DNA of 64,000 nt from Candidatus Saccharimonadaceae bacterium (GTDB lineage Bacteria > Eisenbacteria > RBG-16-71-46): positions 81,637-145,636 of the forward strand of contig DATJGS010000037.1 of assembly GCA_035494735.1 (NCBI GenBank). Reading direction: 5' to 3'. The translations under genes and the position numbers were made by a program. The notes below the pieces were generated by a model. It saw nothing but the letters and a program-made list of their open reading frames with translations, did no database searches and was not told where the DNA came from. Shown piece after piece: positions 16,988-41,092 of this stretch. Positions within the stretch are counted from its first letter, which is position 1; every line of letters starts with the position of its first letter.

Positions 16988-16997
16988 TCCACCCACC

Positions 16998-17023: not shown

Positions 17024-17042
17024 CAACGTCCCGGAGGATTCC

Positions 17043-17405: not shown

Positions 17406-17451
17406 CACGGCGCTCAAGGAGCGGGGGGCGACGTGCCGATACCACGGCATC

Positions 17452-18201: not shown

Positions 18202-18245
18202 CCGATCGCGACGCGCCCGCCGGCCACCGCGAGCCCTATCGCGCG

Positions 18246-18728: not shown

Positions 18729-18823
18729 GCTAGCACCGGCGCGGCGCGCGGCGCGCGAGTCCGGCGCGGCGTCTGCGCGTGGTGCGGCGACGGCGCGGGC
18801 GCGCGGTTCGCCGCGGGCGTCCG

Positions 18824-21800
18824 ATGACGCACACGCTCGCTCCCGCGTTCGTGCCGCTGCGCGTGCGCTCGCACGGCTCGTTGCTCGAGGGCACCGCCTC
18901 ACCCGAGCAGCTCGTCCGGACCGCGCTCGAGCGCGGCGCGCACGCGCTCGCGCTGACCGACCGCAACAACCTCTACCTCGCGATCCGCTTCTGGCAGGCG
19001 GCGCACGCCGAGGGCCTCGTGCCGCTGCCCGGCGCCGAGCTGGTGACGGCCGACGCGGCGGCCTTGCTGCTGCCGCTCGACCGCCGCGGCTGGGCGCGGC
19101 TGTGCGCGCTGCTCACCGCGCGGCATCTGGACCCGGCGTTCGATCTGATCGCGGCGCTCGGCGAAGGCGCGGCCGGGCTCCACGTGATCGTCGAGACGCC
19201 GGCGCTCGCGGCTTCGCTGCTGGCGGCCGGCGTCCCGGCGGCGCGCGCGACGGGCGCGGGAGCCTCCGGCGGGCTGTGGCTCGGCGTGCGCGGGCTTTCT
19301 TTCGAGCGCCCGCGCCTGGCCGAGCGGCTCGACGCGGCGCGCGCGCTCGGCGTGCCGGCGGTCGCGACCGGCGATTGCGTGATGCTGAATCCGCTCGACC
19401 ACGACGCGCACGCCATCGCCATGACCGCGGCGCGCGGCGAGCTGCTCGAGCGCATGCCGCCCGGCGCGTTCGCGACGCGCGACGCGTGGCTCGCGTCCCC
19501 CGCGGAGTGGACGCGCCGCGTGCGCGCGCTCTGCACGGGCGCCGGGCGGCCCGAGGCCGCGGCCGTGCTGCTCGCGCACAACGTCGAGCTGGCGGCGCGC
19601 TGCCGGCTCGAGCTGGAGCTGGGCACGCCGATCTTCCCGCGGCATCCCGAAGTGCAGGGCGCCGAGGGCCTGGCGCGCCTCCAGCGCCTGTGCGACGACG
19701 GCGTGCGCTGGCGGTATGGCGGGGGGCGGGCGACGGCGGGCGCGCACGGGCCGGCGGCGTACGCGGCGCCGGCGCCCCCCGCGTCGCCCGGCGCGCGCGC
19801 CACGACCGTCCGCGCCGCGGGCGCGCGCCTCGCGGAAGAGCTGTCGATGATCGCGCGCATGGGCTTCACCGATTACTTCCTGCTCGTCGCCGAGATCGTC
19901 GGCTTCGCGCGCGCGCGCGGCATCCCGACCGTGGGCCGCGGCTCGGGCGCAGGCTCGATCGTGGCGTACGTGCTCGGCATCACGAACGTCGACCCGCTGC
20001 GCTACAACCTGTACTTCGAACGCTTCCTCAATCCGTCGCGGCGCGACTGCCCGGATCTCGACATCGATCTGTGCTGGAAGCGCCGCGACGAAGTGATCGC
20101 GCACGTGTACGACGCGTACGGGCACGATCGCGTCGCCATGATCTCGACGCACGCCACGCTGGGCGCGCGCTCGGCGTTCCGCGAGACCGCGAAGGCGCTC
20201 GGCGTGCCGAACGCGCGCGTGAACGTGCTGGCGAAGCGCGTGCCGCGCGATCTCGAGGCGCCGTACGCGCCGAAGCTCGCCGCGTTCGCGGGCGGGCGCG
20301 ACGTGGATTGGCGCGAGCCGGTGCTGGCGCGCGCGCTGGCGCTGGCCGAGAAGCTGTCGGGCGCGCCGCGGCACCTGTCCGTGCACGCGGGCGGACTCGT
20401 GATCGCGGACCGGCCGCTCACCCACTACGTGCCGCTCGAGCGTGCGGCCAAGAACGTGGTCGTGACGCAGTTCGAGATGCGCGCGATCGAGGCGATCGGC
20501 CTGGTCAAGATGGACCTGCTCGGCAACCGCGCGCTGACCGAGATCGGCGACTGCGCGAGCCTCGTCACGCGGCGCGGCGGTCCGGTGATCGACGTCGACG
20601 CGATCCCCGACGACGACCCCGCGACCGCGGCGCGCGTCGGCGCGGGCGCGACGCTGAACTGCTTCCAGCTCGAGTCTCCGGCCATGCGCCACCTGCTGCG
20701 CATGATCGCGGCGCGCAACCTCGACGACACGATCGCCGCGGTCGCGCTCGTGCGCCCCGGGCCCGCCGGCTCACCGGGCGGCGAAGGGCGCGATCGCAAC
20801 ACGAAGGAGACGTTCTGCCGCCGCCAGCGCGGCCTCGAGCCCTCCGTGTTCGCGCACCCGCGCCTCGAGCCCGTGTTGCGCGAGACGCACGGGCTGATGC
20901 TGTACGAAGAAGACGTCATGCGCGTCGCCGCCGCGCTCACGCCGCTGACGCTGGCCGAGGGCGACGACCTGCGCCGCGCCATCGCCCACGCGCGCGACGA
21001 CGAGGAGTTCCGCGCGCTCGAGCGCGGCTTCGTCACGCAGGCCCGGCGCGAAGGCGTCGACGATGCGAGCGCCCACGCCGTGTGGCGCGAGCTGACGCGC
21101 TTCGCCGCGTACGCGTTCTGCCGCGCGCACGCCGCCGGCTACGGGCGCCTCGGCTGGCAGGCCGCGTACCTGAAGACGCACTTCCCCGCCGAATACGCGG
21201 TGTCGATCCTCAACCATCACGCCGGCATGTATCCGACGTGGGTGCACGTCGAGGACCTGCGCCGCCAGGGCGCGTGTTTCCTGCCGCCGTGCGCGGCGCG
21301 CTCGACGTGGGACTCGGCGTACGAAGCGGGCGCCGTACGCGTCGGGCTCGGGCGCGTGCTCGGGCTGTCGGAGGCGACGGGCGCGCGCATCGCCGGCGAG
21401 CGCGCGGCGCGGCCGTTCGCCAGCCTCGCCGACTTCGCGGACCGCGCGCGGCCCAGCTCCGACGAACTCGAGACGCTGATCCGCGCGGGCGCGCTCGACT
21501 TCGCGGGGCGCTCGCGGCCCGCGCTGTTGCTGGAAGCGCGCGTGGCCGCAGGGCGCGGCGGCGCGGCCGGAGGCGCGCGGGCGCTGGTACGCGCGCCGGC
21601 GCTGGCCGCGAACGACGGCACACCCGTGCTGCCGACGGCGGTCGCCACGGTGCTGACGCCCGAGCTGCCCGAGTTCTCGCTCGAACAGCGCGTGCGCGGC
21701 GAGCTGGAGGCGCTCGGCCTATGGTTCAGCGCGCATCCGCTCGACGTGATGCTGCCGCCGGGTGCGCGCGACGGCACGGTGCGCGCGGCGGCGTTGCCTA

Positions 21801-22105
21801 GGCACGCCGGGCGCCGCGTCGCGGTCGTCGGCATGCCGTGCGCGCAGCGCGGCGTCGAGACGCGCAGCGGCGACATGATGCTGTTCCTCACCGTCGCCGA
21901 CGAGAGCGGGCTCGTCGAATGCGCGCTGTTCCCCGACACGTATCGCGCGTGCGCCGCGGCGACGCGCGGCGAGATCGTGCGCGTGGAGGGTCGCGTCGAC
22001 GAAACGCTGGATTCCGTGACGCTGGGCGCGGAGCGCGTGGAAATGCTGTCCGCGTCGCGCGACACGCCGCACGGCCGCCAGGGACGCGGCCAACATCACC
22101 ATTGA
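18824..22105 (+). CDS. dnaE2: Error-prone DNA polymerase III alpha-type subunit.
   Basis: About 1093 aa; PHP domain, polymerase core and OB fold; shorter than DnaE1 and lacking its C-terminal region. Confidence 0.85.
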   Translation: MTHTLAPAFVPLRVRSHGSLLEGTASPEQLVRTALERGAHALALTDRNNLYLAIRFWQAAHAEGLVPLPGAELVTADAAALLLPLDRRGWARLCALLTARHLDPAFDLIAALGEGAAGLHVIVETPALAASLLAAGVPAARATGAGASGGLWLGVRGLSFERPRLAERLDAARALGVPAVATGDCVMLNPLDHDAHAIAMTAARGELLERMPPGAFATRDAWLASPAEWTRRVRALCTGAGRPEAAAVLLAHNVELAARCRLELELGTPIFPRHPEVQGAEGLARLQRLCDDGVRWRYGGGRATAGAHGPAAYAAPAPPASPGARATTVRAAGARLAEELSMIARMGFTDYFLLVAEIVGFARARGIPTVGRGSGAGSIVAYVLGITNVDPLRYNLYFERFLNPSRRDCPDLDIDLCWKRRDEVIAHVYDAYGHDRVAMISTHATLGARSAFRETAKALGVPNARVNVLAKRVPRDLEAPYAPKLAAFAGGRDVDWREPVLARALALAEKLSGAPRHLSVHAGGLVIADRPLTHYVPLERAAKNVVVTQFEMRAIEAIGLVKMDLLGNRALTEIGDCASLVTRRGGPVIDVDAIPDDDPATAARVGAGATLNCFQLESPAMRHLLRMIAARNLDDTIAAVALVRPGPAGSPGGEGRDRNTKETFCRRQRGLEPSVFAHPRLEPVLRETHGLMLYEEDVMRVAAALTPLTLAEGDDLRRAIAHARDDEEFRALERGFVTQARREGVDDASAHAVWRELTRFAAYAFCRAHAAGYGRLGWQAAYLKTHFPAEYAVSILNHHAGMYPTWVHVEDLRRQGACFLPPCAARSTWDSAYEAGAVRVGLGRVLGLSEATGARIAGERAARPFASLADFADRARPSSDELETLIRAGALDFAGRSRPALLLEARVAAGRGGAAGGARALVRAPALAANDGTPVLPTAVATVLTPELPEFSLEQRVRGELEALGLWFSAHPLDVMLPPGARDGTVRAAALPRHAGRRVAVVGMPCAQRGVETRSGDMMLFLTVADESGLVECALFPDTYRACAAATRGEIVRVEGRVDETLDSVTLGAERVEMLSASRDTPHGRQGRGQHHH

Positions 22106-30650: not shown

Positions 30651-32213
30651 TCACTCGATGCGCAGCAACCGCACCGTCGACGTCGCGCGCCCGGCGCTCA
30701 GCCGCACCAGGTAGACGCCGGCCGGGACGTGCGCCCCGCGCTCGTCGGCGCCGTCCCACGTCAGACGCTCTGCGCCCACCGCGAAGCGCACGTCGGCCAG
30801 CGTGCGCACCCGCCGCCCCTGCGTATCGAAGATCTCGACGCGCGCCGGCCCGGGCTCGCGCAGCGCGAACGAAACCTCCGTAGGCCCGGCGCTCGGATTC
30901 GGCGTGACGCGGAGCGCGAAGTTGCGCGGCGTCGGCTCGACCGCGTTCGGCGGCCCGGTGTAGCGAATGCGCCCGAACGCCCCGGTCGCGCCGCCGAAGC
31001 CGTCGTCGAACTGGCGCAGCCAGTACAGGCTGCCGTCGGGGCCGATCTGGTAGTCGCATTGGCTGTACATGCCGGTCATCCAGTTCACCGTATCGGGCTG
31101 TCCCGGCACATCCGCCGGCGCGACCCACGTGCCGCCGACCTTCTGCGCGCAGCGCAAGTAGCCGCCGTAGTAATCGCCGTAGAACAGAATCCCCTCGTAT
31201 TCATTCGGCCAGTTCGCGAGGCCGCCCACGGCGCCGCGGTGCACGCCGGCCGTGATGACGGCCTGGCTGCTGCCGTCGTGCGGGATGACGACGATCGGCG
31301 AGTCGAACGTCTGCGAGCCGCCGCCGCCCGGCTCCGGGCACTGCCCGACCGGCTCGACCGTCACGCCCTCGCGCCACGGCCAGCCCTCGTTGTCCCCGGC
31401 GGACACCTCGTCGACCTCCTCGAACGAGAAGTCGCCGGGGTCGGCGACGTACAGATTCTGGGTCACGCGATCGATCACGAATCGCCACGGATTGCGCAGG
31501 CCGAGCGCGAACACCAGGCGCGTCGTGCTGTCGCTCGACGCGAATGGATTGTCGGCGGGCGTGATCTGCGCGCGGAAGGCGCTGCCCGCGCCCGGCGGCA
31601 GGTTGCGCACGTCGAGCCGCAGGATCTTGCCCTTGAGTTGCGTCAGGTCCTGCGCCGCGCAACGGTCGAGGTCTTCCCCCACGGCCGCGTAGAGCATGCC
31701 ATCGAGCCCGAAACGCAGGCACCCGGCGTTGTGGCTGTCCGAGTTGTCCGGGATGTTGCCGATGATCACGTACGGCGAGCCGAGCACGAGGCTCTCTCCG
31801 AGCGGATTCGCGAGGTCGCCGCTGGCCGTGTAACGCACGATGATGATGAAGCCGCTCGTGCTCGTGTAGTCGAGATACACGTAGGGGCGCTGCGGCCACG
31901 CCGGATCGACCGCGACTCCCTGCAGCCCGCGCTCGCCGCTCGTCCCGGACGTGTTGAGCCCCGGCACGGTCAGCACCGGGTCTGTGGCAGCCACATGCGT
32001 GCCGACGATGAGTCGCACGCGCCCGGTCACCTGCTCCGTGAACAGCACGCGCCCGTCGGGCAGGAACGCGAAGCTGTTCGGCTGGGTGAGAGAGGGCACC
32101 AGCACTTCGGCTGCGAAGTTCGCGGGGACGACCGGATTGGTGGCGGCGGCGCGCGGGACGAGCACAAAGGCGAAGGCGGCCAGCAGCGGCGCCAGGCGGA
32201 GCGGACGCGTCAT
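30651..32213 (-). CDS. PQQ-dependent sugar dehydrogenase (glucose/sorbosone dehydrogenase family) with a T9SS-type C-terminal domain.
   Basis: GSDH beta-propeller motifs and a C-terminal TPNPSAGP...DTQGRRV...GVYLVRL tail. Confidence 0.8.
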   Translation of the reverse strand: MTRPLRLAPLLAAFAFVLVPRAAATNPVVPANFAAEVLVPSLTQPNSFAFLPDGRVLFTEQVTGRVRLIVGTHVAATDPVLTVPGLNTSGTSGERGLQGVAVDPAWPQRPYVYLDYTSTSGFIIIVRYTASGDLANPLGESLVLGSPYVIIGNIPDNSDSHNAGCLRFGLDGMLYAAVGEDLDRCAAQDLTQLKGKILRLDVRNLPPGAGSAFRAQITPADNPFASSDSTTRLVFALGLRNPWRFVIDRVTQNLYVADPGDFSFEEVDEVSAGDNEGWPWREGVTVEPVGQCPEPGGGGSQTFDSPIVVIPHDGSSQAVITAGVHRGAVGGLANWPNEYEGILFYGDYYGGYLRCAQKVGGTWVAPADVPGQPDTVNWMTGMYSQCDYQIGPDGSLYWLRQFDDGFGGATGAFGRIRYTGPPNAVEPTPRNFALRVTPNPSAGPTEVSFALREPGPARVEIFDTQGRRVRTLADVRFAVGAERLTWDGADERGAHVPAGVYLVRLSAGRATSTVRLLRIE

Positions 32214-32430: not shown

Positions 32431-33156
32431 TCAGCCGCCGGGGTTTTCGATGGCCTGCCGGAGCCGCTCGCGCGACGGGATGACGAAGCGTCCTTCGCCG
32501 GTCACGAGCAATCCCTCGCGCCCCCAGCGCGACAACACGCGAATCGCGGATTCGACGGTCGTGCCCACCAAGTCGGCCACTTCCTGGCGCGTCAGCGTGA
32601 GCGGGATCTCGACGCCCGCGGGGCCCTCGCGGCCCATGCGCTCGGCCAGCGTGAGGAACAGCTGCGCGATGCGCGTGTCCACGCGCTGGCCGCGCATGTC
32701 CTCGAGCTTGCGCGTCAGCGACACGACGAGCTTCGTGAGTTCGCGAATGATGGCGCGCGCGAACTCCGGATGACGGTCCAGCAGCTCGAAGTAGTCGCGG
32801 CGCGGCAGCACGACCAGCGACACGGGCTCGAGACACACGGCGCTCGCCGGGTACGGCATGTAGTTGTACACCGCGATCGCACCGACCGGCTCGCCCTCGC
32901 CGAACAGCTCGAGGATCACGTCGCCGGCGTCGGCGTGGCGCACGATCTTCACGCGCCCGCGCACGATGACGGTGAGCTGCTCGGCCGGGTCCCCGGCGCG
33001 CCACAGGAAATCGCCGCGCGCGTAGTCGCGGAGGCTCGCGAGACTCGCGATGCGTCCCTGATCGTCGGCCGTCAGCCCGCGGAACATCGGGATGGAGCGG
33101 ACCGCGGCCAGGACCCGTTCGGATCGAGCCTCGGACGTCGCGCGCGGTTCGCTCAT
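32431..33156 (-). CDS. Crp/Fnr-family transcriptional regulator.
   Basis: cNMP-binding-like fold plus a C-terminal HTH. Confidence 0.85.
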   Translation of the reverse strand: MSEPRATSEARSERVLAAVRSIPMFRGLTADDQGRIASLASLRDYARGDFLWRAGDPAEQLTVIVRGRVKIVRHADAGDVILELFGEGEPVGAIAVYNYMPYPASAVCLEPVSLVVLPRRDYFELLDRHPEFARAIIRELTKLVVSLTRKLEDMRGQRVDTRIAQLFLTLAERMGREGPAGVEIPLTLTRQEVADLVGTTVESAIRVLSRWGREGLLVTGEGRFVIPSRERLRQAIENPGG

Positions 33157-33170
33157 ATGATGCGGATCAT
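33157..33170. promoter_or_regulatory. Crp/Fnr-type palindrome ATGATGCGGATCAT.
   Basis: TGAT-N4-ATCA core resembles the TTGAT-N4-ATCAA FNR/Dnr consensus; sits right next to the regulator's start codon. Confidence 0.45.
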
Positions 33171-33255
33171 AGTCCAGTCGGGCCGCGTGCTCCCACCCCG
33201 CTCGACGGCAACGATCTAGGCCGGAATTCCCGACCCCGTGAATCCACGACGCGCG

Positions 33256-33269
33256 TGATGCCGATCATG
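33256..33269. promoter_or_regulatory. Second Crp/Fnr-type palindrome GTGATGCCGATCAT.
   Basis: Centred about 72 bp upstream of the hemerythrin ATG, consistent with class II (-41.5) activation. Confidence 0.5.
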
Positions 33270-33333
33270 CCGCGCGCGGCGCGAACGCACGATCCTCCTG
33301 ATGGACGCGGTACCGACTTTGGAGGAGCGGACG

Positions 33334-33903
33334 ATGCCCAATACGGTGTTCGACAATCTGCGCGACGACCACCTGCGCGTGCTCGGCGACATCTCGGCCG
33401 TGGAACGCGCCCTCGAGCCCGCGAGCGAAGGGCGGCGCGACGCGCGCGGCGGCCGGGCGGTCCGAGCCAAGGCGATTCGGCCGTCGGCGACGTGGGAACC
33501 GCTGCGCCGCCTCGTCGCGTTGCTCGAGCGCCAGTTCGAGACGCACATGGCGGCGGAGGACAAGGTGCTGTTCCCGTCGCTCGAGCGGGCGCTGCCCGAG
33601 ACGAGCGGTGCGCTCCGTGAGCTCGAGGACGAGCACCGCGAACTGCGCGGCATGCTCGCCTCGGTCGCCGGCCTGCTCCAGCGCCGCGCGTCGCAGGCCC
33701 GCGACGAACAACTCGTCGTGCAGGGCCGCGATCTCGTGGACCTGCTGCGCATTCATATTCGCAAGGAAGAAGTCGTCGTGTTCCGCGTGGCCGAGCGACT
33801 GCTCAGCCCCGCGGAGCTGATGGGCGTCGCGCGCCGTCGGACCGGAAACGCGATGACCGAACTCGGCTCCGGTCGCATCCCCTCGAGAGGATCGAACTCA
33901 TGA
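33334..33903 (+). CDS. Hemerythrin-like (HHE cation-binding) domain protein.
   Basis: Four His plus Glu/Asp in H...E spacing; GGAGGAG SD; ATGA overlap with the cytochrome c gene. Confidence 0.7.
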   Translation: MPNTVFDNLRDDHLRVLGDISAVERALEPASEGRRDARGGRAVRAKAIRPSATWEPLRRLVALLERQFETHMAAEDKVLFPSLERALPETSGALRELEDEHRELRGMLASVAGLLQRRASQARDEQLVVQGRDLVDLLRIHIRKEEVVVFRVAERLLSPAELMGVARRRTGNAMTELGSGRIPSRGSNS

Positions 33904-34391
33904 AGACGACTCGACTCGTGACGCTCGCCCTGGCCCTCGCGGCTGTGGCCGCGGTCGCGGGCTGCGGCGGCAAGACGGCGGATTCGGGCACCACCACGGG
34001 CACGACGAACGTGTCGGCCTCGGGCGCGGCCGGCGGCGACGCTCTGCCCGCCGGGCTCGACGAAGGCCCGCGCGCCGCGACGACGCCCATCGACGAGAGC
34101 AAGGTCGAAGCCGGCGAGAAGCTGTTCCAGACGCGCGGCTGTTCGGCCTGCCACGGATTCGGTAAGCGCATCTCCTGCCCCGATCTCGATGGCGTGACGT
34201 CGCGCCGCACCGCGAAGTGGATCGAGACGCAGATCCTGCACCCCGACGTCATGACCAAGCAGGACCCGACCGCTCGCCAGTTGTTCGCGCAGTACGCGCT
34301 GCAGATGCCCAAGCAGGGACTGACGCCGGCGGAGGCCGCCGCCGTGCTCGAGTTCCTGAAGCACAAGAACCACGAATCGGCCGAGAAGTAA
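33900..34391 (+). CDS. Lipoprotein c-type cytochrome.
   Basis: LAGC lipobox and a CSACHG heme-binding motif. Confidence 0.85.
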   Translation: MKTTRLVTLALALAAVAAVAGCGGKTADSGTTTGTTNVSASGAAGGDALPAGLDEGPRAATTPIDESKVEAGEKLFQTRGCSACHGFGKRISCPDLDGVTSRRTAKWIETQILHPDVMTKQDPTARQLFAQYALQMPKQGLTPAEAAAVLEFLKHKNHESAEK

Positions 34392-34410: not shown

Positions 34411-36324
34411 ATGAAACGCTGGATCACGATCGTCGCCGCCGTTGTCGCTGGAGCCGTGACGCTCGCCCACCTGCCGGGATGTGCCGGCACGCGCGGCGGC
34501 GGAGGCCCCGGCGCCGCGGCCGGCAAGGTGTACGTGAAACCGGGCGAGCACGACGCGTACTACGCGTTCCTGTCCGGCGGACACTCGGGGCAGATCTACG
34601 TGTACGGCATGCCGTCGTGCCGGCACATCACCACGATTCCCGTGTTCACGCCCGAGCCCGCCGTGGGCTACGGCGTGGACGAGGAGTCGAAGGCCATGCT
34701 CGGCGGACTCACCTGGGGCGACGCGCATCACCCGGGCATGAGCGAGACCGACGGCGATTACGACGGTCGCTGGCTGTTCATCAACGACATGCCGAATGCG
34801 CGCATCGCGCGCATCGACCTGTCGGACTTCAAGACCCACGAGATCTACGGGCCGATTCCGAACGTGTCCGCGGCGCACGCGTGCCCGTTCCCGACGCCGA
34901 ATACCGAGTACGTGTTCGCGGCGTCGCGCTTCTCGATCCCGATCCCCTACCCAACCGTGCGCCCGATGTCCGAGTACGCGCAGGCGTTCAACGGCGTGGT
35001 GGCGGGCATCAAGGTGGATCCCAAGAGCGGTCATATGTCGATGGGCTTCGAAGTGCTGATGCCGCCGTTCGACTGGGATCTGGCCGACGCCGGCAAGGGC
35101 CCGAGCAACGGCTGGGAATTCTTCACGTGCTACAACAGCGAAGAAGCCCATGACTCGCTCGAAGTGAAGGCCTCGCAGAACGAGATGGACTACATCGCCA
35201 TGGTCGACTGGCGCGCGGCGCAGAAGGCGGTCGACGAAGGCAAGGCGAAGATGATCGGCGGCGCGCCGGTGCTCGATCCCAAGGACGTGAAGGGCATCGT
35301 GTACCTGTTCCCGGTGCCGAAGAGCCCGCACGGCGTCGACGTCGATCCGAGCGGCCAGTACGTGTGCGCCTCGGGCAAGCTGCAGGCGGAAGTCTCCGTC
35401 TACAGCTTCGCGAAGCTGAGCGCGGCCATCGCCGCCGGCAAGTTCACGGACGAGAAGGGCGGCATCCCGGTGCTGCCCTACGAGAACGTGATCGAAGCGA
35501 AGGTGCCGGTGGGCCTGGGGCCGCTGCACACGCAATTCGACGGCAAGGGCTACGCGTACACGTCGCTGTTCCTCGACTCGCAGATCGCGAAGTGGAAGAT
35601 CGGCCCGCCCTGGAACGTCGTCGACAAGATCGACGTGTACTACTCGATCGGCCACCTCATGGCGTCCGAGGGTGACACGCGTCACCCGACCGGCGACTAC
35701 GTCGTGGCGCTCGACAAGCTGTCGAAGGACCGCTACCTGTCCGTCGGGCCGACGCATCCGGAGGCCGCGCAGCTCATCGACATCCGCGGACCGAAGATGG
35801 AGCTGCTGTACGACTTCCCCACGTACCTCGAGCCCCACTACGCGCAGATGATCCGCGCTGAGAAGCTCAAGCCGTTCACCGTGTACCCGCTCGACAAGAA
35901 CGACAAACCGTTCGCGACCAAGCGGGCCGAGGACGCGCGTGTCGAGCGCAAGGGACATCGCGTGGACGTGATGATGATCGCCGTGCGTTCGCACTTCTCG
36001 CCCGACAACATCCAGGTGACGCAGGGCGACACGGTCTACTTCCACGTCACGAACGTCGAGCAGGACGACGACATCGCGCACGGCTTCGGCATTCTGTTCT
36101 CGAGCAAGAACATGCAGATCGAGCCGGGCGAGACCAAGACCATGCGCTGGGTCGCGGACAAAGCCGGCGTCACGCCGTTCTACTGCTCGAACTTCTGCAG
36201 CGCGCTGCACCAGGAGATGCAGGGCTACATCGAAGCGTTGCCGGCGGGCGCCCACGTGGCCGCCGTGCAGCGTCCCGATCCGGCTCGCGTCGCCGAAGTC
36301 GCGGCGCTCATGAAGCACCCATAG
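34411..36324 (+). CDS. nosZ: Nitrous-oxide reductase, clade II (Sec/lipoprotein-type).
   Basis: Seven-bladed propeller region and a C-terminal CuA site HGF...FYCSNFCSALHQEMQG. LPGCAG lipobox and no twin-arginine. Confidence 0.92.
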   Translation: MKRWITIVAAVVAGAVTLAHLPGCAGTRGGGGPGAAAGKVYVKPGEHDAYYAFLSGGHSGQIYVYGMPSCRHITTIPVFTPEPAVGYGVDEESKAMLGGLTWGDAHHPGMSETDGDYDGRWLFINDMPNARIARIDLSDFKTHEIYGPIPNVSAAHACPFPTPNTEYVFAASRFSIPIPYPTVRPMSEYAQAFNGVVAGIKVDPKSGHMSMGFEVLMPPFDWDLADAGKGPSNGWEFFTCYNSEEAHDSLEVKASQNEMDYIAMVDWRAAQKAVDEGKAKMIGGAPVLDPKDVKGIVYLFPVPKSPHGVDVDPSGQYVCASGKLQAEVSVYSFAKLSAAIAAGKFTDEKGGIPVLPYENVIEAKVPVGLGPLHTQFDGKGYAYTSLFLDSQIAKWKIGPPWNVVDKIDVYYSIGHLMASEGDTRHPTGDYVVALDKLSKDRYLSVGPTHPEAAQLIDIRGPKMELLYDFPTYLEPHYAQMIRAEKLKPFTVYPLDKNDKPFATKRAEDARVERKGHRVDVMMIAVRSHFSPDNIQVTQGDTVYFHVTNVEQDDDIAHGFGILFSSKNMQIEPGETKTMRWVADKAGVTPFYCSNFCSALHQEMQGYIEALPAGAHVAAVQRPDPARVAEVAALMKHP

Positions 36325-36376: not shown

Positions 36377-36988
36377 GTGCACTATCTCGCCGATCGATTT
36401 CAACCGCGTGAGCGCCGCCTGATCTGGCTCGCCGCGCTCATCCTGGTTCCCGTCTTCTTCCTTCCGATCCTGCCGATCTGGGTCATGAAGCTGTGGGCCC
36501 CGCAGTATCGCGAAGGGCTGACGCTGACCATCTTCAGCAACACCATCAAGGGCAACATCGAGAGCATCAACATCCTCAATCACTACGTCGGCATGCACGC
36601 GATCTCGGCGAATGACTTCAGCGAATTCAACTACCTGCCTCAGGCGCTCAGCCTGTTCGGCGTGCTCGCTCTGCTCGCCGCGCTGCTCAACCGGCGCTGG
36701 CTGGCGATCGCGGGATGGCTCGCGTTCACCGCGTTCGCCGCGTACATGTTCAACGACTACGCGCACTGGCTGTGGCACTACGGGCACGACCTCGACCCGC
36801 GGGCGCCGATCAAGCTGCCGCTGTTCACGCCGCCGCTGATCGGCTTCAAGCAGATGGCGAACTTCCGGGTGTTGAGCGTGCCCGGCCCCGGCACCCTGCT
36901 CCTCGGCGTCGCCTGGCTGCTGGGTCCGCTCGCGATCTTCTTCGAACGGCGCGCCGCGCGTGACACGCGGAAGGCGCACGCGGCGTGA
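36377..36988 (+). CDS. nosB: NosB-like transmembrane protein of clade II nos clusters.
   Basis: Polytopic membrane protein immediately after nosZ; GTG start. Confidence 0.6.
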   Translation: MHYLADRFQPRERRLIWLAALILVPVFFLPILPIWVMKLWAPQYREGLTLTIFSNTIKGNIESINILNHYVGMHAISANDFSEFNYLPQALSLFGVLALLAALLNRRWLAIAGWLAFTAFAAYMFNDYAHWLWHYGHDLDPRAPIKLPLFTPPLIGFKQMANFRVLSVPGPGTLLLGVAWLLGPLAIFFERRAARDTRKAHAA

Positions 36989-38451
36989 ACGCCGTGGACC
37001 GCGTGACGGGCCTCGCGCCAGGCCGGACCCCGGCGCCGTGGCGCGCCGCGAGACGGGGCATCGCGGCCCTTCGCGCCGCCGCGCAAGGGTTGGGGCTGTC
37101 GGCCGCGCTGGCCCTGGCGCTCGTACCCGGCGCCGCGCATGCGCGGACGACGCGCGTTCCCGCCGTGCGTGGCGCCGCGCAGGCCGCGATCTCCGCGGCC
37201 GCGCCCGGCGACACGCTGATCCTGGAGGCGGGGGTCCATCCCGGGCCGCTTCTCGTCGATCGAGCGCTGACCGTGCGGGGGGAGCGCGGCGCGATCGTCG
37301 ATGGAGGCGGTTCCGGATCGACCCTGACCGTGACCGCGTCCGGGACGCGCGTCGAGGATCTCGCCGTCCGCCATTGCGGCACGCGCGTCATCACGGTCGA
37401 CGCCGGCGTGCGCGTGCTCGAGGCCGCGAACGTCACGTTGACGCGGCTCGCGCTCGGCGACGTGCTGTACGGCGTCGACGTCGAGCGCTCGCCGAACCTC
37501 GTCGTGCGCGACTGCGTCTTGCGCGGCCGCGTTGCGGGCGGGGGCGACGACGGCGAAGGCAACGGCCTCCACGTGTGGTACTCGACCGGCGCAACGCTCA
37601 CCGGCAACGACGTCAGCCACTTCGAGGACGCGGTCTACCTGTCGTTCGCGAACGACGCGCGCGCGATCGGCAATCGCCTGCACGACGACGGGCGCTACGG
37701 CTTCCACACGATGTACTGCCAGGGCAGCGTGCTCGAACGGAACGTGTTCACGAGGAACGCGGCGGGCTGCGCCATCATGTTCTCGAACCACCTGCGCGTC
37801 GCGCACAACCGCTTCGAGCACAACCGCGGCCCGCGCACGTACGGCTTGCTGCTGCGCGACTGCTCGGACGGCACGTTCGAGGGAAACGCGCTCGTCGACA
37901 ACACCATCGCCATGTTCCTCGACAACTCGAACCGCAATCGCGTGCGCGAGAACCTGCTGCTCGACAACGGCTGGGGCGTGCTGATGTTCTCGTCGTGCGC
38001 CGGAAACGAGTTCACGCGGAACGCGTTCCTGCACGACGACTACGCGGTCGCGATCGACATGAAGTACACCGACAATCGCTTCGACGATGGGCGCGTCGGC
38101 AACTACTGGAGCGATCACGCGCCGTACGACCTCGACGGCGACGGGCTGGGTGACGCGCCGTATTCGCCCGTCGGCACATTCGCGTTCCTGTCGAAGCAGT
38201 ACCCGGACCTGTCCGTGCTCGCGAAAAGCCCGGCGGTCGCCGCGCTGTCGGTGGCCGAGCAGGTGCTGCCCGCGATGCGCCCCAGCGAGGCCATGGATCG
38301 CCACCCGCTCGTGGCGCCGCCGCCGCTCGCGCGCCAGGGCCTCGTCGCCCTGCCGCGCGGCCGGCGCGCGACGCCGTGGGCCGCGGCGGCATTCGGCTCC
38401 ATCGCGCTCCTGTCGCTGGGCGGCCTCGGCGTCGGACGGTGGCGCGCATGA
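36985..38451 (+). CDS. nosD: Periplasmic right-handed beta-helix protein.
   Basis: Parallel beta-helix repeat pattern and position in the operon. Confidence 0.8.
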   Translation: MNAVDRVTGLAPGRTPAPWRAARRGIAALRAAAQGLGLSAALALALVPGAAHARTTRVPAVRGAAQAAISAAAPGDTLILEAGVHPGPLLVDRALTVRGERGAIVDGGGSGSTLTVTASGTRVEDLAVRHCGTRVITVDAGVRVLEAANVTLTRLALGDVLYGVDVERSPNLVVRDCVLRGRVAGGGDDGEGNGLHVWYSTGATLTGNDVSHFEDAVYLSFANDARAIGNRLHDDGRYGFHTMYCQGSVLERNVFTRNAAGCAIMFSNHLRVAHNRFEHNRGPRTYGLLLRDCSDGTFEGNALVDNTIAMFLDNSNRNRVRENLLLDNGWGVLMFSSCAGNEFTRNAFLHDDYAVAIDMKYTDNRFDDGRVGNYWSDHAPYDLDGDGLGDAPYSPVGTFAFLSKQYPDLSVLAKSPAVAALSVAEQVLPAMRPSEAMDRHPLVAPPPLARQGLVALPRGRRATPWAAAAFGSIALLSLGGLGVGRWRA

Positions 38452-39359
38452 TCCGCGTGTCGGGCCTGGTCAAGCGCTTCGGCGCGATCCGTGCGGTCGA
38501 CGATCTGAGCTTCGAAGTCGAAGCCGGCGAGACGTTCGCCGTCATCGGCCCGAACGGCGCCGGCAAGACCACGATGCTCAAGACGCTGCTCGGGCTGACG
38601 CGGCCGGACGCGGGGAGCATCGTTGTCGGGCCGCACCACCTGGCGCCGACGGATCCGCGCGCGCGCCACGACCTCGGCTACGTGCCGCAGCGCGTCACGT
38701 TCCCGCCCGGGCGAAGCGTCGAAGAGGTGTTGGGCTTTTTCGCGGCGCTGCGCGGGCTCGACGGCGGCGCCGCACGCGCGGCGTTGCGCCGCGTCGGGCT
38801 CGAGTCGCTGGCGGCGCGGCGCGCGAGCGAGCTGTCCGGCGGCTACACCCAGCGCCTGTCGCTGGCCCAGGCGCTGCTCGGCGAACCCGCGCTGCTCGTG
38901 CTGGACGAGCCGACCGCCAGTCTCGACCCCGAGGCCACGTGGGAGTTCCGCTCGTTGATCGAGCAGCAGCGTCGCGACGGCAAGACCATCCTCCTTTGCT
39001 CCCACCTGCTCGCCGAGGTCGAACGCGTCGCGGACCGCGTGCTCATCCTGGTCGAGGGCCGGCGCGCCGCGCTCGAGCGGCTGTCCGAGCTGAGGCTGCG
39101 CCAGATGCGCGCAACGCAGCTCGTGATCGAGATCCGTGAGGCGGAGCCGTCCGTCGCGGCCGTGGTCTCGGGCGCGGCGCCGGGCGCGGCGTGGCTCTCG
39201 CCCACGCGGCTCACCATCGACAATGTCGACGGTGTGGGCCTCGACGCGCTGGACGCGCTGCGTCGCGCGGGCGTCGCGGTGCGCTCGTTCGAGATCCAGC
39301 GGCCGACGCTCGAGGAGCTGTTCCTCCAGGTCGTGCGGCGCGGGAGGCACCATGCGTAG
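38448..39359 (+). CDS. nosF: ABC ATPase.
   Basis: GPNGAGKTT, LSGGYTQRLSLAQAL, LVLDEPT. Confidence 0.85.
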   Translation: MIRVSGLVKRFGAIRAVDDLSFEVEAGETFAVIGPNGAGKTTMLKTLLGLTRPDAGSIVVGPHHLAPTDPRARHDLGYVPQRVTFPPGRSVEEVLGFFAALRGLDGGAARAALRRVGLESLAARRASELSGGYTQRLSLAQALLGEPALLVLDEPTASLDPEATWEFRSLIEQQRRDGKTILLCSHLLAEVERVADRVLILVEGRRAALERLSELRLRQMRATQLVIEIREAEPSVAAVVSGAAPGAAWLSPTRLTIDNVDGVGLDALDALRRAGVAVRSFEIQRPTLEELFLQVVRRGRHHA

Positions 39360-39846
39360 GCCGTGGGCGCAGTCGTTGGTTCGAGGCGACGGTGGCCGGC
39401 CCGGCACCGGGCTGGCCGCGCCGTTCCTCGCCCGACTCGCGCTCACCGCACTGCTCCTTGTGGCGTTCGCAGGTTGCGCGCGGCGCGCGGGACCGCCGTC
39501 GATCGCCGGTGGCGTCGAGTGCACCCGCTGCAGCATGGAGACCAGCAGCCGGCACTTCGCGTGCGAGCGCGAGGTCTCGGGAAAATGGCTCGTGTACGAC
39601 GCGCTCGAGTGTTTGGCTCGCGACGCGGGACGCGAAGATCCGACGGCCATCTGGCTGCCGGACTACGACGAAGGAACGCTGCACCGTGCGGACTCCCTGT
39701 GGATCGTGCACGGCGACCTCGCGACGCCGATGGGCGGCGGACTCGTGGCGTTCATGAGCCGCGCCGCGGCGGACACGATCGCGGCTTCCTCTCACGGCGT
39801 GGTCGGGCGCTGGCGCGAGATCGCGCCCGGGATGGCCAGGCCATGA
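39352..39846 (+). CDS. nosL: Copper-chaperone lipoprotein NosL-like.
   Basis: Lipobox LVAFAGC; about 164 aa; position in the operon. Confidence 0.65.
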   Translation: MRRPWAQSLVRGDGGRPGTGLAAPFLARLALTALLLVAFAGCARRAGPPSIAGGVECTRCSMETSSRHFACEREVSGKWLVYDALECLARDAGREDPTAIWLPDYDEGTLHRADSLWIVHGDLATPMGGGLVAFMSRAAADTIAASSHGVVGRWREIAPGMARP

Positions 39847-40256
39847 CGCGGCCCTACGTCGTGCTGCTCGTCGTCGCGGTCGTCGCCGCCGTCGCGCTCG
39901 GCGTGATCGGCCGGCGCCGTCCGTCCCCGCGCGCGGCGGTCACGGCGCCGATCACGCTGCCCACGGTCGCGCTCGGCATCCAAGTGCGGGACGGCGCGGT
40001 CGAACCCGCGAACGCGGCCGTGCCCAAGGATCACCGCGTCGAACTGGACGTCGTCAATCGCGGGCGCGCCACGGTCTCGGTGCGCCTCGCCGGCTACGAG
40101 GACCACGTGGCGATCGATTCGCTGGCCGCGGGCGCGTCGCGCCACGTCACGTTCGACGCGGATCGCCCGGGCGAGGACTTCGCGTGGCTGCTGGACGGGC
40201 GTCCGGTCGGGCGGCTGTCCGTGACCGGCTCGCACCTCGCGGAGGGACGGCGATGA
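39843..40256 (+). CDS. Small membrane-anchored cupredoxin-like protein with no obvious Cu ligands, inserted between nosL and nosY.
   Basis: N-terminal TM helix and a roughly 100-aa beta-sandwich with a V.L.VVN.G.....F.A..PG.Y..W-type pattern; ATGA overlaps on both sides. Confidence 0.5.
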   Translation: MTRPYVVLLVVAVVAAVALGVIGRRRPSPRAAVTAPITLPTVALGIQVRDGAVEPANAAVPKDHRVELDVVNRGRATVSVRLAGYEDHVAIDSLAAGASRHVTFDADRPGEDFAWLLDGRPVGRLSVTGSHLAEGRR

Positions 40257-41092
40257 GCCTGCGCGCGAAGTTCGTGCGCGTGCGCGTGGTCGGTGCCGAG
40301 GAGTACCGGCGCGCGCTCGAGACGCGCTGGTTGTTCGGCTTCACGACGCTGTTCGCCGCGCTGGTGCTCGGCCTGTCCTACTTCGGCCTCGCGCAGGGCC
40401 ACGAAGTCGGCTTCCAGGGGTTCGCGCGCACGACGCTGAGCCTCATGAACCTCGTGCTGCTCGTCGTGCCGCTGTGCGCGCTCCTGCTCGGCGTCACGAG
40501 CCTGGCGGGTGGCGGCGACACGCTGCCGCTGCTGCTGGCCCAGCCGGTGTCGCGCGGCGAGGTGCTGGCCGGCAAGTTTGCCGGGCTGGCCGCCGCGCTC
40601 ACCGTCGCGCAGGGCCTCGGCTTCGGCGTGGGCGGACTCGTCGTCGCGCTGAACGCCGGCGCCGACCAATTGCCCGGGTTCGTCGCGCTCACCGTGCTGT
40701 CGATGGCGCTCGGCTGGCTGCACCTCGCGGTCGCGCTGGCCATCGGCGCGATATGGCCCGACCGGCTGCGCGCGATGTCGATCGCGCTGCTTCTCTGGCT
40801 CGTGCTGGTCGTCGCGTACGACCTGATCGTGCTCGGCGCGACGACGCTGCTGAGCGGCTTCCCGCTGCAAAGCGTTCTCGTACCCGCCCTGCTCCTCAAT
40901 CCCGTGGACCTGGCGCGCGTGCTCGTCACGATCGCGGTCGGTTCGGGGGCGCTGTTCGGGCCCACGTCGGCGGTGCTGGTCAAGACGTTCGGCGCCACGC
41001 GCGGCGTCGCGCTCGGCGTCTTCGTGCTCGTGGTCGAGACCTTGGTGCCGCTGGTGATCGCGGCCCACGTCTTCCGCCGCCGCGACTGGTAG
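40253..41092 (+). CDS. nosY: ABC-2 type permease.
   Basis: Six TM segments and position in the operon. Confidence 0.8.
   Translation: MSLRAKFVRVRVVGAEEYRRALETRWLFGFTTLFAALVLGLSYFGLAQGHEVGFQGFARTTLSLMNLVLLVVPLCALLLGVTSLAGGGDTLPLLLAQPVSRGEVLAGKFAGLAAALTVAQGLGFGVGGLVVALNAGADQLPGFVALTVLSMALGWLHLAVALAIGAIWPDRLRAMSIALLLWLVLVVAYDLIVLGATTLLSGFPLQSVLVPALLLNPVDLARVLVTIAVGSGALFGPTSAVLVKTFGATRGVALGVFVLVVETLVPLVIAAHVFRRRDW

What the first reader, a model, noticed from the sequence alone, without database searches (positions are those of the whole stretch)
33157..33269. Two near-identical TGATGC(C/G)GATCAT palindromes in the regulator/nos divergent region
ATGATGCGGATCAT abuts the Crp/Fnr start codon, consistent with autoregulation. 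GTGATGCCGATCAT is centred about 72 bp before the hemerythrin ATG, a class II activation position. Both fit the TTGAT-N4-ATCAA FNR/Dnr/NnrR family consensus at the core.
Basis: partly seen in the sequence, partly recalled or inferred. Interest (0 to 1): 0.55.

Follow-up and report, generated by a model that had tools for sequence, protein, structure and literature searches.

The report
Regulator binding sites controlling N2O reductase
The two short palindromes are real, evolutionarily conserved docking sites for the neighbouring Crp/Fnr-type regulator: one probably switches on the hemerythrin/nitrous-oxide-reductase operon and the other probably lets the regulator throttle its own gene. This is a familiar design, found here in an uncultured soil phylum with a slightly altered DNA code.

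Summary
Observation confirmed. ATGATGCGGATCAT (33157-33170) and GTGATGCCGATCAT (33255-33268) lie 98 bp apart between a Crp/Fnr regulator gene (minus strand) and a hemerythrin-cytochrome c-nosZ(clade II)-nosBDFY operon. TGAT-N4-ATCA occurs 3 times in the window against 0.2 expected.

The pair recurs in 72 non-redundant orthologous loci, mostly Candidatus Eisenbacteria, 95-100 bp apart. The family consensus is TATGAC-N4-GTCATA, not TTGAT-N4-ATCAA. A matrix built without the window ranks these two sites first and second in the 64 kb.

Box 2 lies 22-23 nt upstream of a conserved CGAnnnT hexamer, which puts its centre at about -41.5 (class II geometry). Box 1 is the stronger site. It overlaps a -10-like TATGAT just before the regulator's start codon, which suggests autorepression.

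The regulator has no FNR cysteines and no cAMP-contact residues. Its recognition helix reads V-E-x-A-I-R. Two relatives with Ser in place of Ile carry TTGA-N6-TCAA boxes. Six relatives from three Acidobacteriota-annotated sub-clades keep Ile and ATGA-N6-TCAT, upstream of hemerythrin, RIC and NnrS genes, so an NO-type signal is likely but unproven.

Verdict: a new variant of a well-known kind, of moderate interest. No transcription start site, binding assay or effector has been determined.

The parts
33157..33170 (.). Box 1, ATGATGCGGATCAT (16-mer TATGATGCGGATCATA, 33156-33171). High-affinity operator overlapping the regulator's core promoter and abutting its start codon.
   Evidence: Sequence. 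It scores 23.6 bits with a matrix built without the window. It is present in all 22 aligned loci and in 72 non-redundant loci, mean 23.4 bits.
33255..33268 (.). Box 2, GTGATGCCGATCAT. Weaker operator at the hemerythrin-nos promoter, centred at 33261.5.
   Evidence: Sequence; 17.6 bits. It is conserved 95-100 bp from Box 1 (mode 98) in 72 loci, mean 17.3 bits.
33291..33296 (+). GATCCT, the probable -10 hexamer of the hemerythrin-nos promoter. Predicted start about 33303, which puts the Box 2 centre at -41.5. Inferred, not mapped.
   Evidence: C-G-A-n-n-(C)-T is invariant or nearly so in 22 of 22 aligned loci. It lies 22 nt (48 loci) or 23 nt (18 loci) after the Box 2 14-mer in 66 of 71 loci.
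33166..33171 (-). TATGAT on the minus strand: a -10-like hexamer formed by the regulator-distal half of Box 1. Predicted start about 33158-33159, giving a 2-3 nt leader. Inferred.
   Evidence: The half-sites are asymmetric: C in 71 of 72 loci on one half, but A 37 / G 35 on the other. Acidobacterial relatives L102 and L103 have TATGAT, 7 nt, then ATG.
33191..33196 (-). GTGGGA on the minus strand (TTGGGG in most orthologues): a -35-like element for the regulator gene, 17-19 nt from TATGAT. Inferred.
   Evidence: Conserved block CCCCAA in window orientation, with A in 59 and 53 of 72 loci.
33240..33244 (.). GAATC (family consensus GGAAATCG), a conserved A/T-rich block 10-17 nt upstream of Box 2, at about -62 of the hemerythrin-nos promoter. 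It may be a contact site for the RNA polymerase alpha C-terminal domain. Speculative.
   Evidence: A in 62 of 72, A in 55 of 72, T in 58 of 72, C in 60 of 72.
32431..33156 (-). Crp/Fnr-superfamily regulator, 241 aa. Recognition helix T-V-E-S-A-I-R. The cAMP cassette is replaced by an invariant GAIAVYNYMPYPA. No conserved Cys or His.
   Evidence: Pfam cNMP_binding, HTH_Crp_2 and Crp. All NCBIfam hits are below their cut-offs. Alignment with CRP and FNR; AF2 model; Foldseek.
33334..33903 (+). Hemerythrin HHE-domain protein, first gene of the operon.
   Evidence: Pfam PF01814, E = 1.6e-19. Syntenic in the orthologous loci.
33900..34391 (+). c-type cytochrome; its start overlaps the hemerythrin stop.
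   Evidence: Pfam Cytochrom_C; synteny.
34411..36324 (+). Sec-dependent (clade II) nitrous-oxide reductase NosZ.
   Evidence: NCBIfam TIGR04246, 860 bits against a cut-off of 625.
36377..41092 (+). nos accessory genes: a NosB-like membrane protein (36377-36988), NosD (36985-38451), an ABC ATPase, NosF-like (38376-39359), a cupredoxin-like ORF (39363-40256) and an ABC-2 permease, NosY-like (40184-41092).
   Evidence: synteny of NosB and NosD.

Best explanation
The two palindromes are operators for a dimer of the divergently encoded Crp/Fnr-superfamily regulator.

Box 2 is the weaker site. It sits at about -41.5 of the promoter that drives hemerythrin, cytochrome c, nosZ (clade II) and nosB, nosD, nosF and nosY. 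When the regulator is in its active form it binds there and recruits RNA polymerase (class II activation).

Box 1 is a near-perfect 16-bp palindrome. It covers the regulator gene's own -10-like hexamer (TATGAT) and start site, directly before the start codon. The regulator therefore represses itself, and in this window its mRNA is nearly leaderless.

The half-site ATGA(C/T) is read by a recognition helix V-E-x-A-I-R. The Ile sits where FNR has Ser212 and CRP has Gly184. This goes with A at the outer position, where FNR boxes have T and CRP boxes have G.

The activating signal is unknown. Relatives of the regulator sit next to RIC/ScdA, NnrS and hemerythrin genes, so nitric oxide or nitrosative stress is the most likely signal, possibly combined with low oxygen.

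Shown here: the existence, conservation, spacing and specificity covariation of the sites, and the gene context. Inferred: binding by this protein, the start sites, the sign of regulation and the effector.
For: - Enrichment: 3 observed against 0.2 expected. A matrix built without the window ranks the two sites first and second in 64 kb.
- Synteny: regulator divergent from hemerythrin-cytochrome c-nosZ-nosB-nosD in 21 of 23 genome loci and in most metagenome loci.
- Conservation: the box pair is present in 72 non-redundant loci, 95-100 bp apart, in an otherwise diverged intergenic region. Sites of 14 bits or more in 177 kb of orthologous loci lie almost only there.
- Class II geometry: the CGAnnnT hexamer lies 22-23 nt after Box 2 in 66 of 71 loci. 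The acidobacterial relatives show the same 22-23 nt spacing to a TAGnnT hexamer. The -41.5 definition is taken from PMC6343905.
- Box 1 lies 14-29 nt (median 21) before the regulator's start codon, with a Shine-Dalgarno sequence in between, in most loci. A class II start site would therefore fall inside the coding region.
- The Box 1 half-sites are asymmetric, favouring TATGAT. L102 and L103 have TATGAT, 7 nt, then ATG.
- Covariation: the helix x-E-x-A-I-R goes with ATGA-N6-TCAT in Eisenbacteria and in 6 more distant loci. The helix L-E-T-A-S-R (P0123, P0271) goes with TTGA-N6-TCAA. Each box type is absent from the other set, with expectations of 0.003-0.06 per locus.
- Relatives' boxes lie upstream of RIC/ScdA, NnrS and hemerythrin genes. 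Rodionov et al. 2005 list dnrN and nnrS among the genes of NO-responsive regulons (PMC1274295).
Against: - No transcription start site, binding or expression data exist for any member.
- The simple sigma-70 scan found no promoter in the region. The proposed -10 of the nos promoter starts with G (GAnnnT), not T.
- The proposed regulator promoter has a long 17-19 nt spacer, and about half of the orthologues have TATGAC or CATGAC, which lack T at -7.
- Other conserved inter-box blocks (A..CA.TT, GGAAATCG) are unexplained. They would also allow an upstream regulator promoter with Box 2 near -62.
- The Ser/Ile covariation rests on one independent lineage: two contigs whose regulators are 86% identical.
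- One family member (L058) has neither boxes nor nos genes.
- No nir or nor genes are in the window, so an endogenous NO signal is not evident.
- In Nitrosophilus, a Crp/Fnr regulator correlated negatively with nosZ (PMC11539149).
Confidence: 0.7

Rival explanations
1. The boxes are bound by the same regulator, but with a different logic. It could repress the nos operon from Box 2, which overlaps the -35 region. The two sites, 98 bp apart, could form a repression loop. Or Box 2 could also activate the regulator gene from a class I-like distance, giving positive autoregulation, while Box 1 acts as a downstream roadblock.
For: - The box-to-box spacing is fixed at 95-100 bp.
- The conserved block AAnTGnT(A/G)G lies about 50 nt from the Box 2 centre in the regulator's orientation. 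That would put Box 2 near -62 of an alternative promoter.
- A negative correlation between a Crp/Fnr regulator and nosZ was reported for Nitrosophilus (PMC11539149).
- From memory: the E. coli fnr promoter also has two FNR sites about 103 bp apart.
Against: - The 22-23 nt spacing of Box 2 to a conserved -10-like hexamer is the canonical activator geometry, and it recurs in another phylum with a different hexamer.
- The TAGnAAT-like block is only weakly conserved: 24-40 of 72 loci at its key positions.
- 98 bp is 9.3 helical turns, so the sites are not in phase.
Confidence: 0.17
2. The palindromes are targets of a different transcription factor encoded elsewhere, such as a global FNR/Crp paralogue or a factor from another family. 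The adjacent regulator would then be only a neighbour.
For: No binding data exist. Only 64 kb of the genome is visible, so other Crp/Fnr paralogues cannot be excluded.
Against: - The boxes and this regulator are neighbours in 72 or more loci and in relatives from two phyla.
- The outer base of the box changes together with residue 184 of the adjacent regulator.
- The 5-4-5 palindrome is the Crp/Fnr format.
- The family member without the nos locus also lacks the boxes.
Confidence: 0.08
3. The palindromes are chance or non-regulatory sequence, for example restriction or methylation sites (both contain GATC), a repeat element or an RNA structure.
For: Both boxes in this window contain GATC and are short.
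Against: - Orthologues mostly have GTCA rather than ATCA, so GATC is not conserved.
- The sites are conserved in position and spacing while the flanks diverge.
- There is no Rfam match.
- None of 100 shuffles reached the observed count.
Confidence: 0.01

Closest known systems
E. coli FNR (and CRP) class II activation, and fnr autorepression
   Same: - A dimeric Crp/Fnr protein on a 5-4-5 palindrome with core TGA-N6-TCA.
- An activator site 22 nt upstream of the -10 hexamer, centred at -41.5 (definition in PMC6343905).
- A second site over the regulator gene's own start. From memory: fnr has FNR sites at about -0.5 and -103.5.
   Different: - No N-terminal Cys cluster, so no [4Fe-4S] oxygen sensing.
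- The helix is V-E-x-A-I-R, where FNR has V-E-x-x-S-R.
- The half-site is ATGAC, not TTGAT.
- Sequence relationship is only at superfamily level: E about 1e-10 to 1e-12 against FNR structures.
DNR and NnrR, the NO-responsive Crp/Fnr activators of nir, nor and nos in Proteobacteria (Rodionov et al. 2005, PMC1274295)
   Same: - They lack the FNR cysteines.
- They activate denitrification genes, including nosZ, from FNR-like boxes.
- Their regulons include the hemerythrin-type dnrN (RIC) and nnrS. The broader clade of this regulator has its boxes upstream of such genes.
   Different: - The boxes differ: CTTGAT-N4-ATCAAG for DNR and TTGCG-N4-CGCAA for NnrR, against TATGAC-N4-GTCATA here.
- The DNR structure matches only at E = 2e-14, behind the actinobacterial CRPs.
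- The target is a clade II nos cluster in a genome region with no nir or nor genes.
- Haem binding is untested, and there is no conserved His or Cys.
HcpR1 of delta-proteobacteria and cyanobacteria (box wyTTGACnnnnGTCAArw; PMC1274295)
   Same: - The inner half-site TGAC-N4-GTCA is identical.
- The regulator is transcribed divergently from its target.
- Box variants track substitutions in the recognition helix, the same principle as found here.
   Different: - The outer base is T in HcpR1 boxes and A here.
- HcpR1 targets are hcp and frdX.
- The specificity change described for HcpR is at CRP position 180 or 181; here it is at position 184.
NssA, NssB, NssC and NssR regulators of Campylobacterota with clade II nosZ (Wolinella, Nitrosophilus; PMC11539149)
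   Same: Crp/Fnr-family regulators are implicated in the control of clade II nos, nap and nor genes, with TTGA-N6-TCAA-like boxes about 48 nt upstream of the start sites.
   Different: - A different phylum.
- A different box: ATGA-N6-TCAT against TTGA-N6-TCAA (NssR's TTAAC-N4-GTTAA is from memory).
- Those regulators are not encoded divergently from a hemerythrin-nosZ operon.
- Similarity to the Nss proteins was not tested here.
Anr-regulated oxygen-binding hemerythrin of Pseudomonas aeruginosa (bioRxiv 10.1101/802934)
   Same: A hemerythrin gene under an FNR-family regulator, expressed in low oxygen (title and abstract seen).
   Different: Anr is a Cys-cluster FNR. The Pseudomonas hemerythrin is not linked to nos genes. 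Only the abstract was read.

Membership tests
Crp/Fnr superfamily of transcription regulators | An N-terminal cNMP-binding-like beta-barrel, a long dimerisation helix and a C-terminal Crp-type helix-turn-helix. | tested here: met
   Pfam PF00027 (E = 8e-19), PF13545 and PF00325, all above their cut-offs. The AF2 model (pLDDT 80) has the beta-barrel, a long helix at residues 130-154 and the HTH. The top Foldseek hits are all CRP-family structures.
Crp/Fnr-type operator | A palindrome of two 5-bp half-sites separated by 4 bp, with core TGA-N6-TCA. | tested here: met
   T, G and A, and T, C and A, are invariant or nearly so in 72 loci.
FNR proper (oxygen sensor) | An N-terminal cluster of three Cys plus one central Cys that ligate a [4Fe-4S] cluster. 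| tested here: not met
   There is a single Cys (C108), and it is replaced by Ala in several orthologues. No N-terminal Cys aligns with FNR C20, C23 or C29.
FNR proper (oxygen sensor) | An E--SR recognition helix and a TTGAT-N4-ATCAA box. | tested here: not met
   The helix is V-E-S-A-I-R. The family box is TATGAC-N4-GTCATA, with A at the outer position in 67 of 72 Box 1 copies. TTGA-N6-TCAA occurs once in the window, elsewhere, at chance level.
CRP proper (cAMP receptor) | The cAMP-contact residues (E72, R82, S83 of E. coli CRP), R180 in the helix, and a TGTGA-N6-TCACA box. | tested here: not met
   GELGLFEEGQERSA of CRP aligns with the invariant GAIAVYNYMPYPAS. R180 aligns with V. NCBIfam CRP scores 56 bits against a cut-off of 266.
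DNR / NnrR (NO-responsive activators) | Orthology to DNR or NnrR, and their boxes (TTGAT-N4-ATCAA or TTGCG-N4-CGCAA). | tested here: not met
   The DNR structure 3dkw matches only at E = 6e-11 (single sequence) or 2e-14 (profile), behind the actinobacterial CRPs and NtcA. The box differs (PMC1274295).
DNR / NnrR (NO-responsive activators) | Haem-based NO sensing. | not testable with these tools
   No conserved His or Cys; an invariant Met lies within YNYMPYP. Ligand binding needs biochemistry.
DNR / NnrR (NO-responsive activators) | A regulon of nir, nor and nos genes plus dnrN (RIC) and nnrS. | tested here: inconclusive
   The window's boxes precede hemerythrin and nos only. In relatives at 35-45% identity, boxes precede ScdA_N+hemerythrin (RIC) and NnrS genes. 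No nir or nor genes were seen.
Class II activator-dependent promoter | Activator site centred at about -41.5 relative to a mapped transcription start. | tested here: inconclusive
   The geometry is met relative to a conserved -10-like hexamer, 22-23 nt in 66 of 71 loci, and likewise in Acidobacteriota. No start site has been mapped, and the sigma-70 consensus scan found nothing.
HcpR1 | A TTGAC-N4-GTCAA box upstream of hcp or frdX. | tested here: not met
   The inner half-site matches but the outer base is A. There is no hcp gene in the window or in the fetched loci.

The most novel reading that the evidence does not exclude
The regulator and the hemerythrin it always controls form a conserved two-part sensing module, found in Eisenbacteria and in Acidobacteriota. 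In this reading the di-iron hemerythrin binds O2, NO or perhaps N2O and feeds back on the effector-less Crp/Fnr protein, by buffering the ligand or by direct contact. That would be a previously undescribed way of deciding when non-denitrifying, clade II N2O reducers express nosZ.
Probability: 0.12. Interest if true: 0.75.

Novelty: new variant of a known kind. Interest (0 to 1): 0.45.

Why it matters
Clade II NosZ organisms are thought to be the main biological sink for the greenhouse gas N2O in soils. Their regulation is known only for a few Campylobacterota.

This analysis gives a concrete, testable cis-regulatory model for a widespread uncultured soil phylum:
- an operator sequence, TATGAC-N4-GTCATA;
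- its likely reader, a Crp/Fnr subfamily with helix x-E-x-A-I-R;
- a single-residue specificity rule (Ile goes with A, Ser goes with T);
- a promoter architecture.

The motif can be used to predict regulons in Eisenbacteria and Acidobacteriota genomes. It also points to NO rather than N2O as the probable trigger. None of this changes the general picture of Crp/Fnr regulation.

Tried and rejected
- The sigma-70 promoter and terminator consensus scan of 32900-33600 found nothing.
- The Rfam scan of the intergenic region gave only a chance miRNA hit at E = 0.58.
- The third TGAT-N4-ATCA (51047) and the one-mismatch hit at 59126 are not part of the system. The first lies inside the tryptophanase gene and scores 11 bits; the second scores under 10 bits. 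Both are at chance level.
- Box 1 as a class II activator reading toward hemerythrin was rejected. The block at the right distance (CCAAnC) lacks the conserved T at -7 and reads better as TTG, a -35-like element, on the other strand.
- Box 1 as a class II activator of the regulator gene was rejected. The start codon lies 0-29 nt downstream in most loci, so the start site would fall inside the gene.
- I tried to read the block TAcCAcTTTC as a sigma-54, Bacteroidetes-type -7, NarL or IHF site by eye. None fitted, and it remains unexplained.
I repeated it with A2.
- The structure and fold search added nothing beyond a generic CRP fold closest to the actinobacterial CRP and GlxR.
- A literature string search for ATGAC-N4-GTCAT and variants found only TTGAC-type boxes.
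- A whole-genome regulon scan was not possible.

Full report
**1. The observation**

Reading the window confirms both palindromes. ATGATGCGGATCAT lies at 33157-33170. It directly abuts CAT at 33154-33156, which is the ATG of a 241-aa ORF on the minus strand (32431-33156). GTGATGCCGATCAT lies at 33255-33268. The centres are 98 bp apart.

The downstream gene most likely starts at 33334, where ATG is preceded by GGAGGAG, and not at the mechanical ORF start 33301.

TGAT-N4-ATCA occurs three times in this 70% G+C window against 0.20 expected, and none of 100 shuffles reached 3. The third copy (51047) is inside a tryptophanase gene.

**2. Gene context**

Pfam and NCBIfam identify the following.
- The minus-strand ORF is a Crp/Fnr-superfamily regulator.
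- The plus-strand genes are a hemerythrin HHE protein (33334-33903), a c-type cytochrome (33900-34391) and Sec-dependent (clade II) NosZ (34411-36324; TIGR04246, 860 bits).
- They are followed by a NosB-like membrane protein, NosD, an ABC ATPase, a cupredoxin-like ORF and an ABC-2 permease.
- These genes overlap or are separated by 52 nt or less, so they form one likely operon.
- The rest of the window encodes housekeeping functions. No nir or nor genes are present.

**3. Comparative evidence**

Searching one genome per species with the regulator returned 23 loci with 69-83% identical proteins, almost all from Candidatus Eisenbacteria MAGs. In 21 of them the regulator is divergent from hemerythrin-cytochrome c-nosZ-nosB(-nosD). 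A metagenome scan added 75 loci, most with the same synteny where the contig is long enough.

The intergenic DNA has diverged almost everywhere, apart from a few blocks. The two boxes are the strongest of these.

In 72 non-redundant loci the pair is present 95-100 bp apart, with a mode of 98 in 32 loci. In window orientation the Box 1 consensus is T-A-TGAC-NNNN-(A/G)TCAT-(A/G), with a mean score of 23.4 bits. The Box 2 consensus is n-TGAC-NNNN-GTCAT-G, mean 17.3 bits.

The family motif is therefore TATGAC-N4-GTCATA. The inner T/A of this window's boxes is a minority variant, and the outer base is A rather than the T of an FNR box.

A matrix built from the orthologues alone, with the window left out, scores the window's sites 23.6 and 17.6 bits. 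These are ranks 1 and 2. Nothing else exceeds 12.2 bits, and the tryptophanase site scores 11.0, which is chance level. In 177 kb of orthologous loci, sites of 14 bits or more lie almost only in this intergenic region.

**4. Promoter architecture**

*The hemerythrin-nos promoter.* A hexamer preceded by C (CGAnnnT; GATCCT at 33291-33296 here) follows the Box 2 14-mer after 22 nt in 48 loci and after 23 nt in 18, out of 71. C, G, A and T are invariant in the 22-sequence alignment.

If this is the -10 element, the start site is at about 33303. The Box 2 centre then lies at -41.5 or -42.5, the defining geometry of class II FNR/CRP activation (definition in PMC6343905). The leader would be about 31 nt and would carry the Shine-Dalgarno sequence.

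*The regulator's own promoter.* Box 1 lies a median of 21 nt (mostly 14-29) before the start codon in the orthologues, usually with a Shine-Dalgarno sequence in between. In this window the distance is 0.

A class II start site 41 nt downstream of Box 1 would fall inside the gene. Box 1 therefore cannot activate the regulator gene in that way.

In the regulator's orientation, the distal half of Box 1 plus its flanking base reads (T/C)ATGA(T/C). This is TATGAT in the window (33171 to 33166 on the minus strand). A conserved TTG-type block lies 17-19 nt upstream.

The two half-sites are not equally constrained. One has C in 71 of 72 loci; the other has T in 37 and C in 35, read in the regulator's orientation. 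That is what an overlapping -10 requirement would produce.

I therefore infer that Box 1 covers the -10 element and the start site, which means autorepression, and that the window's mRNA has a leader of only 2-3 nt. This step is inferred. No start site has been mapped, and the consensus promoter scan found nothing.

**5. The regulator**

Aligned with E. coli CRP and FNR, the family shows these features.
- It has no N-terminal Cys cluster. The only Cys of the window protein is not conserved.
- The cAMP phosphate-binding cassette (GELGLF...ERSA) is replaced by an invariant GAIAVYNYMPYPA.
- It has no conserved His.
- Its recognition helix is T-(V/M)-E-(S/T)-A-I-R. This aligns with CRP R180-E181-x-x-G184-R185 and FNR V208-E209-x-x-S212-R213.

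All NCBIfam subfamily models score far below their cut-offs. The nearest solved structures are actinobacterial CRP and GlxR (E about 1e-20 to 1e-22). DNR (6e-11 to 2e-14) and FNR (about 1e-10 to 1e-12) are more distant. The AF2 model (pLDDT 80) is a generic CRP fold, and the fold search gives the same ranking.

The protein is present in NCBI only as a 'Crp/Fnr family transcriptional regulator'. There are 704 relatives with E of 1e-20 or better, none with a specific name.

**6. Linking the protein to the motif: covariation**

A search of cluster representatives found relatives at 35-58% identity. Nearly all of those inspected keep x-E-(S/T)-x-I-R.

One lineage instead has L-E-T-A-S-R, the FNR-type E--SR helix. 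It is represented by P0123 and P0271, at 53% identity to the window protein. Their two contigs each carry two TTGA-N6-TCAA boxes (CTTGATCCCGGTCAAC, CTTGACTGGGATCAAG, CTTGACCTAGCTCAAG, TTTGACCGGGATCAAG) and no ATGA-N6-TCAT.

Six more distant Ile-containing relatives were examined. Their relatives in the search list are annotated Acidobacteriota, including Vicinamibacterales and Polarisedimenticolia. Each of their loci carries 1-3 ATGA-N6-TCAT boxes and no TTGA-N6-TCAA.

Expected counts are 0.003-0.06 per locus. The adjacent regulator's residue 184 thus tracks the outer base of the box. This agrees with the role of FNR Ser212 in reading the first T of TTGAT (established knowledge, cited from memory), and with the principle shown for HcpR by Rodionov et al. 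2005 (PMC1274295). The Ser case is one evolutionary event, so this is supportive, not conclusive.

**7. What the relatives add**

In L102, L103 and L104 the regulator is followed by a hemerythrin gene and a radical-SAM gene. A TATGAC-N4-GTCAT box lies 22-23 nt upstream of a TAGnnT hexamer, and in L102 its centre is about 71 nt before the hemerythrin ATG. This is the same geometry as in the window, with a different hexamer.

In L102 and L103 a second box reads GGTATGATCTGnGTCATG. Here TATGAT is followed after exactly 7 nt by the second ATG of the annotated ORF (MIxVM...). This is a textbook leaderless arrangement, and it supports the view that the -10 element lies inside Box 1.

In L105, L106 and L107 the boxes precede ScdA_N+hemerythrin (RIC/DnrN) genes and an NnrS gene. 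Such genes belong to NO-responsive regulons (PMC1274295).

The conserved core is therefore this Crp/Fnr clade, the ATGA-N6-TCAT box and a hemerythrin-type gene. In Eisenbacteria the clade II nos operon sits behind the hemerythrin gene. This makes NO or nitrosative stress, possibly with low O2, the most likely signal. The inference rests on association only. The window's hemerythrin is only distantly related to the acidobacterial one: 27% identity over 91 residues.

**8. Comparison with what is known**

The system works like FNR/DNR-type control of denitrification genes: class II activation plus autoregulation. It also resembles the Nss-type Crp/Fnr control proposed for clade II nos in Campylobacterota (PMC11539149). 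Its inner half-site equals that of HcpR1 (TTGAC-N4-GTCAA).

It is not a member of FNR, CRP, DNR/NnrR or HcpR1 by their defining features; the membership table gives the tests. A string search of the held literature for ATGAC-N4-GTCAT and variants returned only TTGAC-type boxes. I found no paper on nos regulation in Eisenbacteria.

**9. Verdict**

This is a new variant of a well-known kind: a new specificity class and an uncharacterised sensor domain in front of a clade II nos operon in an uncultured phylum.

Interest is moderate (0.45). The result gives a testable regulatory model for an environmentally important N2O sink, but it does not challenge existing concepts.

Still unexplained:
- the conserved inter-box blocks;
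- the effector;
- the sign of regulation;
- one family member without boxes (L058).

Noticed in passing
window 33195-33196, 33214-33217, 33240-33244 (family blocks CCCCAA, A..CA.TT, GGAAATCG between the boxes): Three further short blocks between the two boxes are conserved across 72 loci, at fixed distances from Box 2 (59-64, 38-44 and 10-17 nt before it). I read the first as a -35-like TTG for the regulator gene. The last may be an A/T-rich contact for the RNA polymerase alpha C-terminal domain. The middle one (TAcCAcTTTC) fits no motif I tried.
   Followed up: partly
window 33334-33903, and loci L102-L105 and L107: A hemerythrin-domain gene is the constant partner and target of this regulator clade in two phyla. 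It is a plain HHE protein in Eisenbacteria and in some Acidobacteriota, and ScdA_N+hemerythrin (RIC) in others. Its role is open: ligand buffer, co-sensor, or repair and protection of NosZ.
   Followed up: partly
window 32431-33156 (protein P0001): The identical protein is deposited at NCBI as coming from a 'Candidatus Saccharimonadaceae bacterium' MAG. The 70% G+C content, the T9SS-tail protein next door and all close relatives (Candidatus Eisenbacteria) suggest that the contig is mis-binned or mislabelled.
   Followed up: no
L058 (Ga0207648_10038139), regulator at about 1378-2100: A 73%-identical family member sits next to a priA fragment. It has an unusually A/T-rich upstream region, no nos genes and no box scoring above 10 bits. 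This may be a rearranged or recently moved copy.
   Followed up: partly
L006 and L007 (both from MAG MFD05942.bin.1.32): Two separate contigs of one MAG each carry a complete regulator-hemerythrin-cytochrome c-nosZ locus with its own box pair. Either the nos cluster is duplicated or the bin is mixed. The NosZ match in L007 is split into pieces, which suggests frameshifts.
   Followed up: no
L102 4001-4015 and L103 4001-4015: The annotated start of the acidobacterial regulators (MIWVM, MICVM) lies inside the operator. The second ATG, 7 nt after TATGAT, is the more likely start and would give a leaderless mRNA.
   Followed up: partly
window 39363-40256: An ORF with a weak cupredoxin-like match (E = 4.5e-4) lies between the NosF-like ATPase gene and the NosY-like permease gene. 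It may be an unrecognised copper-handling nos accessory protein.
   Followed up: no
window 30651-32213 (minus strand): A glucose/sorbosone-dehydrogenase-like beta-propeller protein with a T9SS (Por) C-terminal sorting domain lies directly downstream of the regulator. Paralogues recur near the locus in L022.
   Followed up: no
window 15383-22105: An ImuB-like Y-family polymerase gene (15383-16987) and a DnaE2-like error-prone polymerase gene (18779-22105) form a mutagenesis cassette. It is unrelated to the finding.
   Followed up: no
window 33157-33174 (minus strand): Box 1 itself encodes a 5-codon mini-ORF, ATG ATC CGC ATC ATA TGA. Its stop overlaps the regulator's ATG in an ATGA arrangement. 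This is probably a coincidence of the motif beginning with ATG.
   Followed up: no
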